This document shows positions 1-3,069 of a stretch of 60,188 nt of DNA, one piece after another. A program made the position numbers and the translations under genes. Under the pieces are notes generated by a model. The model was not told the origin of the DNA. It saw nothing but the letters and a program-made list of their open reading frames with translations, and made no database searches. The DNA comes from a virus. Taxonomy: Duplodnaviria; Caudoviricetes. Location: IMG/VR virus record IMGVR_UViG_3300020074_002050, positions 1-60,188 of that record, one strand, 5' to 3'. The first letter of the stretch is position 1, and every line of letters begins with the position of its first letter.

Positions 1-129
1 TTCGGAACTTCCGCTGGTTTAGCAACAAATATACCAAATTATATAAATGAAGTAAATAACACAATATCTTCATTAAGTAGTGGATATAAAGTTAATGAAG
101 TTGATTTAAGTGGATTTAAAATGTATTGA
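1..129 (+). CDS. 3' end of a truncated hypothetical protein
   Basis: Open frame 1 FGTSAGLATN...GFKMY ending TGA at 127-129. Confidence 0.5.
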   Translation, partial: FGTSAGLATNIPNYINEVNNTISSLSSGYKVNEVDLSGFKMY

Positions 130-136
130 AAGATGA

Positions 137-207
137 CTCCAGAGAAAGGATTCGAACCTCTAACACGCGCATTAAAGTGCGCTACTCTACCGTTGAGCTA
201 CTCTGGA
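137..207 (-). tRNA. Atypical tRNA with 6-nt anticodon loop (CTTTAA); identity undetermined; CCA not encoded
   Basis: Acceptor TCCAGAG/CTCTGGA, D-arm GCTC-AACGGTA-GAGT, stem GCGCA/TGCGC around CTTTAA, T-arm AGAGG-TTCGAAT-CCTTT. Confidence 0.75.
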
Positions 208-214
208 ACTAAAT

Positions 215-297
215 TGGCGTTCCCGACAGGATTCGAACCTGTATTTTCAGCTCCATTTACGATGACGGAGGTAGAAGCTCCGCTCGGCTACGGGAAC
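215..297 (-). ncRNA. Rearranged tRNA-like RNA with a TCT (Arg) anticodon-like arm and encoded CCA
   Basis: Acceptor GTTCCCG/CGGGAAC+G+CCA, T-arm ACAGG-TTCGAAT-CCTGT, hairpin CGGAG-CTTCTAC-CTCCG only 8 nt after the acceptor strand. Confidence 0.7.
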
Positions 298-327
298 GTT
301 AAAATTTTAAAAAGGAAAAATCTTTTG

Positions 328-723
328 CTATCTAAAATTTTTTTTATAATCTTCTAAAGCTGCTTGTAATGCTTCTTCAGCCAAAACACTACAGTGAATT
401 TTTACAGGTGGTAAACCTCCAAGAGCTTCTACTATTTGATCGTTATTAAAATTCTTTTGCAAATCATCTATAGTTCTGCCTTTTATTAATTCTGTAGCCA
501 TGCTAGAAGCTGCTATCGCGCTTCCACACCCAAATGTTTTAAACTTAGCATCAATAACTGTATTAGTTTTATCGTCTATTTTTAGACTAATTTTCATTAT
601 GTCGCCGCAAGCTGCCGCACCAACCTCACCAATTGCATTTGCATCTGCTAAATCCCCCATGTTGCGAGGATTTATAAAATGATCCATCACTGTGTTATTG
701 TATAAGGTGTATGAATCACTCAT
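328..723 (-). CDS. iscU: Fe-S cluster scaffold protein IscU/NifU
   Basis: MDHFINPRNMG, CGDIM, FKTFGCGSAIA, LPPVKIHC motifs. Confidence 0.95.
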   Translation of the reverse strand: MSDSYTLYNNTVMDHFINPRNMGDLADANAIGEVGAAACGDIMKISLKIDDKTNTVIDAKFKTFGCGSAIAASSMATELIKGRTIDDLQKNFNNDQIVEALGGLPPVKIHCSVLAEEALQAALEDYKKNFR

Positions 724-734
724 ATATAATTATA

Positions 735-740
735 TTACAC
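735..740 (-). promoter_or_regulatory. GTGTAA motif (putative phage late promoter) upstream of iscU
   Basis: GTGTAATATAATTATATATG; same motif precedes about 12 other starts. Confidence 0.55.
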
Positions 741-761
741 TTTTTTATTATTACAATAAAA

Positions 762-837
762 TGGTGGCTTAGGTGGGATTCGAACCCACACTTTGCAGAT
801 TTTAAGTCTGTTGACTCTGCCGTTGGTCTACTAAGCC
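762..837 (-). tRNA. tRNA-Leu(TAA), short variable loop
   Basis: GGCTTAG/CTAAGCC acceptor, loop CTTAAAA, TTCGAAT T-loop, CCA. Confidence 0.9.
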
Positions 838-856
838 GTTTGAAAATAACAAAAAT

Positions 857-931
857 TGGTAGCCCATGAGGGTATCGATCCCTCTTTCCCAGATTGAAAA
901 TCTGATGTCCTAGCCAGTAGACGAATGGGCC
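857..931 (-). tRNA. tRNA-Glu(TTC)
   Basis: GGCCCAT/ATGGGCT acceptor, loop TTTTCAA, variant T-loop ATCGATA, CCA. Confidence 0.88.
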
Positions 932-937
932 ATATCA

Positions 938-1009
938 TAGTCCAAGCGGGATTCGAACCCACAACTTCACCCTTATAAAGAGTTTACTCTGCCGTTGAGT
1001 TATTGGACT
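938..1009 (-). tRNA. tRNA-Ile(TAT); CCA not encoded
   Basis: AGTCCAA/TTGGACT acceptor, loop TTTATAA, TTCGAAT T-loop. Confidence 0.82.
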
Positions 1010-1033
1010 ATAATAAATATGCAATAGTCTCTG

Positions 1034-1106
1034 TGGGCCGTGCTGGACTTGAACCAGCAACCGACGAATTATGAGTTCGCTGCACAAACCATTATGCTAA
1101 CGGCCC
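1034..1106 (-). tRNA. tRNA with CAT anticodon (Ile2 or Met); CCA not encoded
   Basis: GGGCCGT/ACGGCCC acceptor, loop CTCATAA, T-loop TTCAAGT. Confidence 0.85.
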
Positions 1107-1132
1107 ATAGAAACTACTACATATTAAATTAA

Positions 1133-1205
1133 TTAAGCAGCGGGGAACGTATTCCCGTCTTATATTACTAACACACGTTAGATATAAGTGAACCTCACTG
1201 CTTAA
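1133..1205 (-). ncRNA. Structured three-way-junction RNA in the tRNA cluster
   Basis: P1 TTAAGCAGTG/CGCTGCTTAA, P2 CTTATAT.CTAAC-GTGT-GTTAG.TA.ATATAAG, P3 GGGAA-TACG-TTCCC. Confidence 0.55.
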
Positions 1206-1217
1206 AATCTGAAAAAA

Positions 1218-1292
1218 TGGTGCGTCCGGTGGAATTCGAATCCACAACCACCGGCTTAAAAGGCCGATGCTCTACCGTTGAGCTACGAACGC
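1218..1292 (-). tRNA. tRNA-Lys(TTT)
   Basis: Canonical cloverleaf, loop CTTTTAA, CCA. Confidence 0.93.
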
Positions 1293-1312
1293 ATTATTTA
1301 AAGAACATCGAC

Positions 1313-1340
1313 AACCTATTATATTTTCACCGATTGTCAA
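1313..1340 (-). promoter_or_regulatory. sigma70-type promoter for the tRNA cluster
   Basis: TTGACA-N16-TAGGTT. Confidence 0.6.
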
Positions 1341-1352
1341 GGAGAAATCTAA

Positions 1353-1424
1353 AGCCTCTCCAGAGACTTGAACTCTGCTCTGGGGTTTACAAAACCCCTG
1401 CATCGCCATCTATGCTTGAGAGGC
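1353..1424 (-). tRNA. tRNA-Thr(TGT); CCA not encoded
   Basis: GCCTCTC/GAGAGGC acceptor, GGGGT-TTTGTAA-ACCCC, T-loop TTCAAGT; A at position 8. Confidence 0.85.
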
Positions 1425-1439
1425 AACATACATACTTTC

Positions 1440-2363
1440 TTACTTACTTATACTTTCTAATACTTTACAACCATGAACAGTAATATGTCGCAATACATCA
1501 ATATTGATAAGTCCTTTTCTAATCAAAAATAATTCAAAATCTTTTTGTATAGCGGATCTTGACAAGCCAGTTTTTGCAGCCAACATTGATAGACTACAAC
1601 TACCTTCTTTACGCAATATATTTAGTATCTGCCATTCAATTCTATTTAAACCGTGAGGTAACACTCCTAGAATATGAAACAAATTAATTGCGTCGTTTTT
1701 TGTAAATTTATTCGCTGAAAGTCGGTCAGTATAAATTTTTACATCTCTTGCGCGGAGGACGCAAGAGCGAGCATTACCACGACTAGTTTGAGCTAGAATA
1801 TGTAATGCTTCATCATCAAATTGTATATCTGGCAATGATATTCTAAATATTTGCTGCAAATCATCTTCAGTGTAATCTGAAAATTCAATGAAAGTCAATC
1901 TATCGCGCAACGGAATAAATAAATCTTGCGACTCAGTTGTTGCAAATATAAAATGATGTTTTTTGAAATCAAAACTGTATACATTATCGCCAGCAGTGTA
2001 TTCTACTTTATTATCTTTTTCTGTATTGAGAATAGTCAGTAAAGCATATACAAAATCTGTTGGTAACGCATGACATTCATCAAAGAAGACAATAACTTCT
2101 TGATCGTTGATATGGGGCAGAAAAACTTGTTCAAAAAACTGTTTGCCCGATTTTATACTGCTGCTGTTGAGCGACAGTAGCGGTTTCTTACGTCCATTGG
2201 AACCAATGATGTTCTTGGAGAACTCTTGGGCAAACTTTGATTTGCCAAGACCTCTAGCTCCAATGAAATTAAGAAACGGAAAAGATCCAGTAACTTTGTA
2301 AGCTTCAATATAAAATTGTAGCTTGCGTTTTACAGCATCTTGCCCGACAAGTTCATTAAACAT
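1440..2363 (-). CDS. ruvB: Holliday junction branch migration ATPase RuvB-like
   Basis: FNELVGQ, Walker A GARGLGKS, Walker B FFDECH, ATTE..LRDR, RGNAR, RuvB-like C-terminal wHTH. Confidence 0.85.
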   Translation of the reverse strand: MFNELVGQDAVKRKLQFYIEAYKVTGSFPFLNFIGARGLGKSKFAQEFSKNIIGSNGRKKPLLSLNSSSIKSGKQFFEQVFLPHINDQEVIVFFDECHALPTDFVYALLTILNTEKDNKVEYTAGDNVYSFDFKKHHFIFATTESQDLFIPLRDRLTFIEFSDYTEDDLQQIFRISLPDIQFDDEALHILAQTSRGNARSCVLRARDVKIYTDRLSANKFTKNDAINLFHILGVLPHGLNRIEWQILNILRKEGSCSLSMLAAKTGLSRSAIQKDFELFLIRKGLINIDVLRHITVHGCKVLESISK

Positions 2364-2368
2364 ATTTA

Positions 2369-2629
2369 TCAGGAAATTACGAACTCGACTTTCGAATCCT
2401 CTTCCTTCGTATCTTGAAGCTGCTCCTGAATTTCGGGAGGCAGCGCATCACCATCTTGCGAAGAGGTCGCAGGAACGCTCTTGTACTTCGCGTACCAAGT
2501 GCGACCAACTTGCACGATTGCGTTTGGATCGTTGTTGAGCTTGGCAAGCAAGTCAGCCAACGTGATTTCAATGGTACTGGTCGATCCCTTCGGACGACCA
2601 CGGCCAGTCTTTTGTGATGGGTTATCCAT
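2369..2629 (-). CDS. Small AT-hook DNA-binding protein (start reassigned to 2629)
   Basis: GRGRPKGS AT-hook; ATG 8 nt downstream of a -10 box. Confidence 0.7.
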   Translation of the reverse strand: MDNPSQKTGRGRPKGSTSTIEITLADLLAKLNNDPNAIVQVGRTWYAKYKSVPATSSQDGDALPPEIQEQLQDTKEEDSKVEFVIS

Positions 2630-2637
2630 ACGCGATG

Positions 2638-2665
2638 AATTTAGCAGGTTTCTGAGGGTTGTCAA
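2638..2665 (-). promoter_or_regulatory. sigma70-type promoter, near-leaderless
   Basis: TTGACA-N16-TAAATT with upstream TG, 8 nt to ATG. Confidence 0.7.
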
Positions 2666-2709
2666 GGGGTCGATGCAAGATTTTTTGAGAAAGTTGGGGG
2701 TATGGGACG

Positions 2710-2753
2710 AAAAAAAGCCCGATTTGAAACACGGTTTCATGCGCTTCGGGCTT
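2710..2753 (-). terminator. Intrinsic terminator / long hairpin
   Basis: AAGCCCGA...TCGGGCTT followed by a T-run. Confidence 0.65.
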
Positions 2754-2819
2754 AACTGGATTTTGATAATTTATCAAATTTTATCCAGCATATATTTGCG
2801 CTAATATATATTACACTAT

Positions 2820-2981
2820 TTATTCTTCTTCGCGAGAATATTCTTCATCTTCTACATAAGTATTATCTAATTCATCTGCATAATCTTCGTAACAAAATGC
2901 ACAGACAATTTTCTTACCTACCTTTTGATAATCATCGTTTTCAACATCTATAAATTCATCACAGTATAAACACTTTTTCAT
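2820..2981 (-). CDS. Small acidic Zn-finger protein (53 aa, not in ORF track)
   Basis: MKKCLYC...VCAFCYEDY, two CxxC. Confidence 0.6.
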   Translation of the reverse strand: MKKCLYCDEFIDVENDDYQKVGKKIVCAFCYEDYADELDNTYVEDEEYSREEE

Positions 2982-3069
2982 ATATTGTATTTGTACATAT
3001 CATAACCAATATTGTGAAAAAATAAATAAAAAAAATCTTTTTTTTTGTTATTATAGTGTAGAGATTATT

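What the first reader, a model, noticed from the sequence alone, without database searches (positions are those of the whole stretch)
215..297. tRNA-like RNA with the anticodon arm apparently transposed into the D-arm
Seen (minus strand): GTTCCCG TAGC CGAG [CGGAG CTTCTAC CTCCG] TCATCGTAAATGGA GCTG AAAAT [ACAGG TTCGAAT CCTGT] CGGGAAC G CCA. The acceptor stem, T-arm and CCA are perfect. A well-formed anticodon arm (C32, U33, UCU, A37) comes before the D-loop-like AAATGG. TAGC can pair with GCTG around both, and no arm lies between that helix and the T-arm. Inference: a topologically rearranged tRNA mimic that keeps the acceptor/elbow. It could be a decoy for anticodon nucleases, a non-ribosomal aminoacyl donor, or a splicing substrate. 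An alternative fold (CTCCGT/ATGGAG, 8-nt loop) is possible.
Basis: partly seen in the sequence, partly recalled or inferred. Interest (0 to 1): 0.78.

Follow-up and report, generated by a model that had tools for sequence, protein, structure and literature searches.

The report
Rewired arginine tRNA of phages
This phage gene encodes an arginine tRNA whose anticodon arm sits inside what is normally the D-arm, and it is one of more than a hundred such phage genes that standard tRNA finders and genome annotations mostly miss.

Summary
The sequence is exactly as described at 215-297 (minus strand). It is not a one-off.

Covariation supports the acceptor stem, the anticodon stem, the T arm and the two unusual helices. 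In those, nt 10-11 pair with nt 47-48 and nt 12-14 pair with nt 36-38. Together they enclose the anticodon arm and flank an 8-nt bulge that looks like a D-loop and ends in GGA.

A further covarying pair (bulge nt 3 with the last nt before the T stem: A-T 104, G-G 9, G-C 5) resembles the canonical 15-48 tertiary pair.

116 of 118 anticodons are arginine anticodons.

In a related lake strain the same locus, with identical acceptor stem, T arm and flanks, holds an ordinary cloverleaf tRNA-Arg(UCU). In Microbacterium phage Pumpernickel the unannotated family member is the only UCU arginine tRNA beside 41 annotated tRNAs.

My reading is a working arginine tRNA with a rewired core, not a decoy. Expression and charging are untested.

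Seven literature searches found no description. Two earlier reports of this scan noted the same design on other DNA.

The parts
291..297 (-). acceptor stem, 5' strand (tRNA nt 1-7)
   Evidence: Pairs 7/7 with 219-225. All 7 pairs covary in 118 sequences, 98.5% paired.
287..290 (-). TAGC, nt 8-11: 5' strand of the D-stem-like helix H2
   Evidence: nt 10 and 11 covary with nt 48 and 47 (mutual information 1.31 and 0.81). T8 and A9 are 118/118 invariant although no search pattern fixed them.
284..286 (-). CGA, nt 12-14: 5' strand of helix H3
   Evidence: 12-38 is CG in 118/118. 13-37 is GC 98, AU 15, CG 4, GU 1. 14-36 is paired in 67/118.
265..283 (-). anticodon arm, nt 15-33: 6-bp stem (G15.T33 plus 5 bp) and 7-nt loop CTTCTAC, anticodon UCU at 273-275
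   Evidence: The 5 inner pairs covary at 86-99% paired per pair; the 6-pair helix is 92.2% paired. 15-33 is GU 66, AU 14, CG 6, GC 2, UG 1, other 29. RNAalifold predicts the 5-bp stem on its own.
263..264 (-). 2-nt bulge on the 3' strand (nt 34-35)
   Evidence: The first position is A in 116/118 homologues (C in the window); the second varies freely.
260..262 (-). TCG, nt 36-38: 3' strand of H3
   Evidence: See H3 above.
252..259 (-). TAAATGGA, nt 39-46: 8-nt bulge that stands in for the D-loop (A14-like, R15-like, GG, then A)
   Evidence: Bulge nt 3 covaries with nt 55: A-T 104, G-G 9, G-C 5, with no exceptions. This is the best pair outside the helices. With any base other than A after GG the pattern finds 3 viral contigs, against at least 117 with A.
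248..251 (-). GCTG, nt 47-50: 3' strand of H2
   Evidence: See H2 above.
243..247 (-). AAAAT, nt 51-55: junction that stands in for the variable loop; its last nt partners the bulge
226..242 (-). T arm: ACAGG / TTCGAAT / CCTGT (nt 56-72)
215..225 (-). acceptor 3' strand (219-225), discriminator G (218), encoded CCA (215-217)
   Evidence: CCA is encoded in 68/118 homologues; the discriminator is G 52, T 34, A 32.
135..208 (-). neighbouring tRNA, 7 nt downstream: tRNA-Asn(GUU) with one base missing from the anticodon loop in this record
   Evidence: ARAGORN calls it '???' with a 6-nt loop. All 4 laid runs have one extra base behind 175. Relatives have tRNA-Asn(gtt) at this place.

Best explanation
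Positions 215-297 (minus strand) encode a working tRNA-Arg(UCU) with a non-canonical core.

Structure. The acceptor stem, T arm and anticodon arm are standard. There is no D hairpin. Instead nt 8-20 form one continuous 5' strand. It pairs first with nt 47-50 (H2, the equivalent of D-stem pairs 10-25 and 11-24), then with nt 36-38 (H3), then with the 3' strand of the anticodon stem. The 3' strand carries a 2-nt bulge and an 8-nt bulge, TAAATGGA. The result is a three-way junction, not a four-way one.

Inferred tertiary contacts. The 8-nt bulge does the work of the D-loop. Its GG would contact the T loop. Its third base would pair with the last base before the T stem, as in the 15-48 pair. The A after GG would serve as the arginyl-tRNA synthetase identity base.

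Inferred function. RNase P, the CCA enzyme and EF-Tu would see a normal acceptor/T minihelix. ArgRS would see C35, U36 and the A after GG. The 13-bp arm would place the anticodon about where a cloverleaf does, so the RNA would read AGA on the ribosome.

Shown: the sequence family, the helices, the tertiary covariation, the arginine anticodons and the genomic slot. Inferred: expression, charging, decoding and the 3D shape.
For: Family. Three pattern scans gave 19, 28 and at least 117 viral contigs, plus 16 contigs of GTDB species genomes. They yielded 126 distinct parsed sequences, of which 118 were aligned.

Structure. 95.4% of cells are paired against 65.0% in shuffles (0/500), and 39-48% in slid registers. 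All 19 pairs that vary outrank every pair outside the helices in mutual information, except 15-33.

Tertiary pair 43-57 (alignment columns): A-T 104, G-G 9, G-C 5.

Anticodons: UCU 78, ACG 22, UCG 10, CCU 4, GCG 1, CCG 1, which is 116/118 arginine.

Model separation. With the covariance model, 50 of the 107 matches and 94 of the 116 score 76 bits or more. Canonical tRNAs's loci score 36.4 bits or less; the window's gene scores 90.8.

Same slot as a canonical gene. A 1410-nt contig of run X3 lies on window 1-654. All of its 21 substitutions, and 6 of its 7 indels, fall inside 242-286. The resulting 79-nt allele is present as such in 13 of 33 metagenome contigs. ARAGORN calls it tRNA-Arg(tct), and it is followed after 7 nt by the same tRNA-Asn. 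L266 has the same array order.

Non-redundancy. Pumpernickel has 41 annotated tRNAs with Arg acg x2, ccg and cct but no tct; the family member (UCU) scores 68.4 bits at 100456-100533. In 124 of 135 instances the locus holds no canonical Arg tRNA with the same anticodon, and 117 of 135 lie beside other tRNAs.

Codon use. The window is 32% G+C, and AGA makes up 43% of 506 arginine codons.
Against: No RNA evidence: expression, end processing, charging and decoding are all untested.

RNAalifold predicts only the acceptor stem, anticodon stem and T arm, not H2 or H3. Those two helices rest on covariation alone.

Pair 14-36 is unpaired in 51/118, and 15-33 in 29/118.

T8.G50 and A9-T49 never vary. 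The columns GTA, GGA, TG, AA and the T loop were fixed by my patterns in most sequences, so their invariance is partly ascertainment.

Geometry is strained. Only one nucleotide links the GG to H2, where a cloverleaf has two, so a canonical elbow is not assured.

The window's own allele (this interior with this acceptor) has no second sighting. There were 0 other viral contigs. All 33 metagenome contigs with this acceptor and T arm are canonical. None of the four laid runs has a contig over 244-286 with the window's letters.

11 of 135 instances do have a canonical tRNA-Arg with the same anticodon nearby.
Confidence: 0.72

Rival explanations
1. A working tRNA-Arg whose rewiring is selected at the DNA level. 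Homing endonucleases of phage tRNA clusters cut canonical tRNA-Arg genes, and the rewired gene lacks the target while keeping the function. It therefore spreads by gene conversion, with or without the endonuclease gene beside it.
For: Two earlier reports of this scan describe HNH cassettes that break or overwrite a canonical tRNA-Arg(UCU) gene and carry a rewired copy. Here a 12-member HNH cluster and a 4-member GIY-YIG cluster lie within 500 nt of family genes, and in L154 and L160 the HNH frame ends inside the tRNA's first 10-20 nt. The canonical and rewired alleles at one locus differ only in the interior 45 nt. The family occurs in phages of unrelated hosts.
Against: Adjacency is not specific. 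15 of 117 family genes have such an endonuclease gene within 300 nt, against 58 of 573 canonical tRNAs in the same loci (Fisher p = 0.41), even though the seed proteins were picked beside family genes. No endonuclease gene lies within 1-723 of the window. No tRNA stub was found beside L154, L160 or L087. No cleavage site is known.
Confidence: 0.15
2. A working tRNA-Arg whose rewired core lets it escape a tRNA-directed defence nuclease, or a phage's own shut-off nuclease, that recognises the canonical D-arm and anticodon-stem hinge of arginine tRNAs.
For: Phage tRNAs are known to resist anticodon-arm nucleases through changes in the anticodon arm (PMC10264068, abstract in a search listing; PMC12445682, passages read). 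Some phages carry sets of rewired Arg isoacceptors side by side: L132 has 4, L127 has 3, L161 has 3-4 and L227 has 3. Canonical and rewired alleles coexist in one lake population.
Against: No arginine-specific antiphage nuclease turned up in the papers I read. The anticodon loop and 5-bp stem are ordinary. Nothing here tests resistance.
Confidence: 0.12
3. A decoy or non-translational tRNA mimic: a bait for anticodon nucleases, or an aminoacyl donor outside the ribosome.
For: The core is non-canonical, and ARAGORN overlaps only 18 of 135 instances. A tRNA-dependent DNA modification by a phage enzyme exists (PMC13219725, abstract in a search listing).
Against: Anticodon position 34 varies (U, A, C, G), so the family covers anticodons for all six arginine codons. 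These anticodons complement the canonical sets in the same arrays. The gene replaces a canonical tRNA-Arg(UCU) in a syntenic slot. The acceptor/T minihelix needed for EF-Tu is fully kept.
Confidence: 0.06
4. A dead recombination scar, a pseudogene or an assembly chimera.
For: The window's exact allele has no second sighting. The neighbouring tRNA-Asn in this record has a 1-nt deletion that all four laid runs lack.
Against: 118 distinct sequences keep every helix through compensatory changes. The window's interior is at most 90% identical to any other member, so it was not pasted from a known contig. The two alleles share only 11 nt on the 5' side, too few for a k-mer assembler to join without real reads (inference).
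Confidence: 0.04

Closest known systems
Canonical phage tRNA-Arg(UCU), for example the 79-nt allele at the same locus in related lake contigs (L242, L245, L248)
   Same: The acceptor stem, T arm, discriminator and CCA are identical. It has the same anticodon, the same U8 A9 G10 C11 start, a GG-containing loop and a 5-nt junction before the T stem. It sits in the same slot, 7 nt before tRNA-Asn.
   Different: The anticodon arm lies between the two halves of the D stem, not after it. The D-loop equivalent is a bulge on the 3' strand. The junction is three-way, not four-way. The gene is 4 nt longer. The family model scores 90.8 bits for the window and 21.4 bits for the canonical allele.
D-arm-lacking mitochondrial tRNAs (animal mt-tRNA-Ser(AGY), nematode and mite tRNAs)
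   Same: There is no D hairpin, and the acceptor connects almost directly to the anticodon helix.
   Different: Those are shortened tRNAs with a short replacement loop and degenerate T loops (PMC2797822 and PMC3326299, abstracts in search listings; the rest recalled). Here the RNA is longer than normal. It keeps a consensus T loop and a GG bulge, and it has a 15-48-like covarying pair. The hosts are bacteria.
Circularly permuted tRNA genes of the red alga Cyanidioschyzon merolae (recalled; seen in no call)
   Same: The order of tRNA segments in the gene differs from the cloverleaf order.
   Different: There the 3' half precedes the 5' half, and processing restores a normal tRNA. Here the gene's ends are the acceptor ends, with CCA encoded. 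The rearrangement is internal, so it would persist in the mature RNA.
allo-tRNAs and tRNA-Sec with 8/4 or 9/3 acceptor/T branches (PMC5389517, abstract in a search listing)
   Same: They are natural non-canonical tRNAs found in metagenomes and phages.
   Different: Those change helix lengths but keep the four-arm order. This family keeps 7/5 but changes the arm order.
Phage tRNAs that resist anticodon-arm nucleases (PMC10264068; PMC12445682)
   Same: They are phage-encoded substitutes for host tRNAs that carry altered bodies.
   Different: The reported changes are substitutions or a shorter anticodon stem within a normal cloverleaf (passages read), not a change of topology.

Membership tests
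Canonical elongator tRNA (Rfam RF00005) | 7-bp acceptor stem with discriminator (and CCA) | tested here: met
   98.5% of cells paired in 118 sequences.
Canonical elongator tRNA (Rfam RF00005) | 5-bp T stem with a 7-nt TTCGAAT-type loop | tested here: met
Canonical elongator tRNA (Rfam RF00005) | 5-bp anticodon stem and a 7-nt loop with T33 and a purine at 37 | tested here: met
   The loop is CTTCTAC. 116/118 homologues have T at loop position 2.
Canonical elongator tRNA (Rfam RF00005) | D hairpin between nt 9 and nt 26 | tested here: not met
   Rfam's alignment deletes 15 model positions. ARAGORN makes no call. nt 10-14 pair with segments 3' of the anticodon arm.
Canonical elongator tRNA (Rfam RF00005) | anticodon arm followed by a 4-5 nt variable loop (or an extra hairpin), then the T arm | tested here: not met
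   23 nt follow. They hold the H3 3' strand, the 8-nt bulge, the H2 3' strand and a 5-nt junction.
Canonical elongator tRNA (Rfam RF00005) | score at or above Rfam's gathering threshold | tested here: met
   36.0 bits against 29.
Canonical elongator tRNA (Rfam RF00005) | tertiary core: G18 G19 with the T loop, and the R15-Y48 pair | tested here: inconclusive
   GG is present in the bulge. Bulge nt 3 covaries with the last junction nt (A-T 104, G-G 9, G-C 5). No 3D test is possible with these tools.
Arginine identity (rules for bacterial ArgRS, recalled: C35, U36 or G36, A20) | C35 and U36/G36 | tested here: met
   116/118.
Arginine identity (rules for bacterial ArgRS, recalled: C35, U36 or G36, A20) | A directly 3' of G19 | tested here: inconclusive
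   A is present, and the pattern with a base other than A finds 3 contigs against at least 117. One of those 3 (L232) has GGT and a UGU anticodon; variants with Ile anticodons also have GGT. Whether ArgRS reads this A is untested.
Arginine identity | charged with arginine | not testable with these tools
   Needs an aminoacylation assay.
D-arm-lacking mitochondrial-type tRNA | short replacement loop with no D-loop equivalent, and a reduced T loop | tested here: not met
   An 8-nt GG bulge and a consensus T loop are present.
Intron-containing or permuted tRNA gene | removing one contiguous segment, or joining the ends, gives a cloverleaf | tested here: not met
   By inspection: the anticodon arm lies 5' of the D-loop equivalent, so no single excision restores the order. 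The acceptor ends are the gene's ends.

The most novel reading that the evidence does not exclude
The rewired core is an escape form of tRNA-Arg that circulates among unrelated phages. It keeps what RNase P, ArgRS, EF-Tu and the ribosome need. It abolishes the canonical D-hairpin and hinge at the RNA level, and its sequence at the DNA level, which is what a tRNA-directed defence nuclease or a homing endonuclease recognises. On this reading, the coexistence of a canonical and a rewired allele at one locus in one lake population is a live arms-race polymorphism. The same design, seen with Ile and Thr anticodons in a lower-scoring tier, would point to a general alternative tRNA architecture in phages.
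Probability: 0.3. Interest if true: 0.92.

Novelty: new variant of a known kind. Interest (0 to 1): 0.82.

Why it matters
The order of arms in the cloverleaf is among the most conserved features in biology. The exceptions I could find, outside organelles, change helix lengths and not topology.

If this is a widespread, conserved, bacterial-type tRNA in which the anticodon arm is nested in the D-stem, several things follow:
- The translation machinery tolerates a three-way-junction tRNA.
- There is a natural matched pair, with the same acceptor and T arm and a canonical or rewired core, for testing what the tRNA core is needed for.
- There is a gap in annotation. ARAGORN overlapped 18 of 135 instances, and none of the seven cultured-phage records I checked annotates the gene (one search confirmed five of them, the other two).
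- It gives a testable route into why phages carry their own tRNAs.

Tried and rejected
- Loci found through the neighbouring IscU-like protein: L002-L019 were the close relatives (73-89% identical, of 80 loci kept). 17 of the 18 have no tRNA at all, and none holds the RNA.
- The relative found through the AAA protein (L082) has a different tRNA array.
- My first pattern, with the window's acceptor fixed, found 0 viral contigs.
- The minimum-free-energy fold of the single sequence does not use the T arm and is not informative.
- RNAalifold did not recover H2 or H3.
- RNA evidence: no RNA holder was listed. The two runs labelled RNA-Seq are probably DNA, hold a small share, and show no contig over 244-286.
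- No laid run showed the window's own interior.
- A PHROGs scan of 6 frames around the Brucella haematophila copy gave nothing usable, so prophage context is unresolved.
- Homing-endonuclease linkage: 15/117 against 58/573, not enriched.
- No tRNA stubs were found beside three HNH-linked copies.
- The BLAST hits in Salmonella phage bobsandoy and Vibrio phage 1.250.O are other odd tRNAs, not this family.
- Seven full-text searches, and passages of PMC7609411 and PMC9897764, found no description of this design. Subscription journals and supplementary files were not searchable.

Full report
**What is there.** The window is a 60,188-base IMG/VR virus record, estimated about 32% complete and 32% G+C. 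On the minus strand, 1424 down to 135 holds a tRNA array: Thr, Lys, Met, Ile(UAU), Glu, Leu(UAA), an IscU-like gene (328-723), the RNA in question (297-215), and 7 nt later another tRNA. ARAGORN does not call it. Rfam's tRNA model reaches 36.0 bits (gathering score 29), but only by deleting the D-arm and inserting 20 nt before the T arm.

**Homologues.**
- Relatives found through the neighbouring proteins did not help.
- A pattern built from the anticodon arm and T loop with a long spacer found 19 viral contigs with the same spacing.
- A pattern free of the anticodon found 28.
Those were mostly metagenome-assembled, plus Brucella haematophila and an Ochrobactrum.
- A script parsed 126 distinct sequences. 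Eight were dropped because they were cut by a locus end or because my acceptor finder mis-parsed them. The other 118, of 78-82 nt and with at least 6 of 7 acceptor pairs, were aligned.
- Ascertainment: the fixed letters of these patterns cannot count as conserved. Columns 1-39 were free.

**Structure.** I tested this structure: acceptor; nt 8-11 with 47-50 (H2); nt 12-14 with 36-38 (H3); nt 15-20 with 28-33 (anticodon stem); T arm.
- 95.4% of 2948 cells are standard pairs, against 65.0% in shuffles (0 of 500 reach the observed value) and 39-48% when partners are slid by 1-3 columns.
- The new pairs covary:
  - 10-48: GC 62, AU 50, CG 3, UA 2, none unpaired.
  - 11-47: CG 82, UA 14, AU 10, UG 4, GC 1, other 6.
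  - 13-37: GC 98, AU 15, CG 4, GU 1.
  - 14-36: paired in 67/118.
  - 15-33: GU 66, AU 14, CG 6, GC 2, UG 1, other 29.
- T8, A9 and C12 are invariant (118/118) although unconstrained.
- T8.G50 and A9-T49 never vary and remain untested.
- By mutual information, every varying helix pair except 15-33 outranks all other column pairs.
- RNAalifold, run on the same alignment, returns only the acceptor stem, the 5-bp anticodon stem and the T arm. H2 and H3 therefore rest on covariation and not on energy.

So nt 8-20 are 13 consecutive paired bases. The opposite strand has a 2-nt bulge and the 8-nt bulge TAAATGGA (commonest forms TAATTGGA and TAACTGGA).

**A tertiary signal.** The strongest covariation outside the helices joins the third base of the 8-nt bulge to the last base before the T stem: A-T 104, G-G 9, G-C 5, with no mixed cases. 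That is the pattern of the canonical 15-48 pair; the canonical rule is recalled here, not tested. Read this way, the bulge is a D-loop: A14-like, R15-like, two variable bases, G18 G19, then A. The 5-nt junction is a variable loop. Aligned with the canonical allele described below, U8 A9 G10 C11, the GG loop, the G-C 3' half of the D stem and a 5-nt junction are all in place. Only the anticodon arm has moved.

**Identity.**
- Anticodons in the 118 are UCU 78, ACG 22, UCG 10, CCU 4, GCG 1, CCG 1. Two have an odd loop, CCTGTAA.
- With any base but A after GG, the same pattern finds 3 viral contigs, against at least 117 with A.
- One of those three has GGT and a Thr anticodon.
- A lower-scoring tier found by the covariance model (38-69 bits) has the same general layout with shorter H2. 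It carries Arg anticodons, or GGT together with Ile anticodons: UAU, GAU, and one CAU, which could also be Met.
- The link between this A and arginine fits the A20 identity rule of bacterial ArgRS (recalled) but is not a test of it.
- CCA is encoded in 68/118.

**Context.**
- 117 of 135 instances lie beside other tRNAs (median 5 in the locus). ARAGORN overlaps only 18 of 135: 8 as Arg, 7 of them with the right anticodon and none with the family gene's ends.
- In Microbacterium phage Pumpernickel all 41 annotated tRNAs lie in 82.9-102.1 kb. They include Arg acg x2, ccg and cct but no tct. The family member (UCU, 68.4 bits) sits unannotated at 100456-100533.
- L161 and L227 show the same complementarity.
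- 124 of 135 instances have no canonical Arg tRNA with the same anticodon in the locus; 11 do.
- Other cultured carriers are:
  - Pseudomonas phage PA11 (88.5 bits)
  - Caulobacter phage BL57 (81.6)
  - Microbacterium phage Zooman (72.8)
  - Rhizobium phage RHph_I1_18 (59.8)
  - Pectobacterium phage POP12 (43.4)
  - Vibrio phage D419 (85)

  None of these records annotates the gene as a tRNA.
- BLAST listed about 300 further Vibrio phage records with the same partial match; I did not check them.
- In the window AGA is the commonest arginine codon (43% of 506), and no other Arg tRNA is found in the 60 kb.

**A canonical allele at the same locus.**
- Window 1-3000 is held almost whole by 18 lake-water DNA runs.
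- When four runs were laid, a 1410-nt contig of X3 lay on 1-654. All 21 of its substitutions, and 6 of its 7 indels, fall within 242-286, the interior of this tRNA. The seventh indel is at 175.
- Worked out by hand, that allele has the same acceptor stem and T arm but an ordinary D hairpin, an anticodon arm with UCU and a 5-nt variable loop.
- A scan of metagenome contigs with the window's acceptor and T arm and a free interior then returned 33 contigs, all with 75-79-nt interiors. 13 carry exactly that allele.
- ARAGORN calls it tRNA-Arg(tct), followed after 7 nt by the same tRNA-Asn. L266 repeats the window's array order.
- The rewired gene thus stands in for a canonical tRNA-Arg(UCU).
- Caveat: the window's own combination has no second sighting in anything I could search, and the tools may withhold near-identical records.
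- Its interior is at most 90% identical to any other member, so it was not copied from a known contig.

**How it most likely works (inferred).** The acceptor/T minihelix, which RNase P, the CCA enzyme and EF-Tu use, is standard. ArgRS would find C35, U36 and the A after GG. The long arm (4 + 3 + 6 bp) is about as long as the D stem, nt 26 and the anticodon stem stacked in a cloverleaf. The GG bulge would hold the elbow.

One strain in this picture is that a single base links GG to H2, where a cloverleaf has two. The elbow may therefore differ. None of this is shown.

**Why rewire?** Two escape readings are open.
- Homing endonucleases. Earlier reports of this scan tie rewired tRNA-Arg genes to HNH homing-endonuclease cassettes that break canonical tRNA-Arg genes. 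Here HNH and GIY-YIG genes do sit next to some copies, twice overlapping the tRNA's 5' end. They are no more frequent there (15/117) than beside canonical tRNAs of the same loci (58/573; p = 0.41). None is near the window's copy.
- Defence nucleases. Escape from a tRNA-directed defence nuclease is plausible by analogy (PMC10264068, abstract only; PMC12445682, passages read) but untested.

**Comparison and novelty.** This is a tRNA by most defining features but fails two of them: the D hairpin and the arm order. It is not a D-arm-less mitochondrial type, a permuted gene or an intron-bearing gene. Seven full-text searches and two papers read in passages gave no description. Subscription journals and supplementary files were out of reach. 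The scan itself met the design twice before on other DNA.

Noticed in passing
window 135-208 (-): ARAGORN's 'tRNA-???' has a 6-nt anticodon loop. All four laid runs have one more base behind 175, which makes the loop CTGTTAA, and relatives have tRNA-Asn(gtt) at this place. This record therefore carries a 1-nt deletion or a sequencing error.
   Followed up: yes
L105 926-1007, L143 9652-9731, L155 11978-12058, L156 2238-2314, L104 7511-7591, L233 8097-8178, L160 692-772, L134 4321-4397, L232 3840-3919: A lower-scoring tier (38-79 bits with the family model) has the same nested layout but Ile (UAU, GAU), CAU or Thr (UGU) anticodons, and GGT in place of GGA in the bulge. The rewired architecture may not be limited to arginine.
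   Followed up: partly
L139 6333-6412 and L193 2352-2431: Two full family members have the loop CCTGTAA (C at position 33, nominal anticodon UGU). Both have an HNH gene 79-94 nt downstream.
   Followed up: no
L082 10194-10275: In the closest relative found (AAA protein 92% identical) another odd tRNA scores 28.4 bits with Rfam. It has D and T arms, but 29 nt stand where the anticodon arm should be.
   Followed up: no
L111 1952-2042: A family-like tRNA-Arg(ACG) of 91 nt carries an extra hairpin-sized insert between the GGA bulge and the T arm.
   Followed up: no
window 328-723 (-): A phage-encoded IscU/NifU-like iron-sulfur scaffold gene (Pfam NifU_N, E = 5.7e-47) sits inside the tRNA array. 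At least 599 viral stretches encode relatives, mostly in other contexts.
   Followed up: partly
L154 10574-11239, L160 1010-1690, L104 8290-8928 and others: HNH (12-member cluster) and GIY-YIG (4-member cluster) endonuclease genes are common throughout these phage tRNA arrays. About 10-13% of tRNA genes of either kind have one within 300 nt.
   Followed up: yes
L132 2769-2851; L108 1269-1349; L218 1223-1305: ARAGORN mis-calls some family members as tRNA-Val(aac), tRNA-Asp(atc) or tRNA-Thr(ggt). Wrong isotypes may therefore be in public annotations.
   Followed up: partly
window 937-1010 (-): A tRNA-Ile with anticodon UAU sits in the array, and ATA makes up 30% of Ile codons in the window.
   Followed up: no
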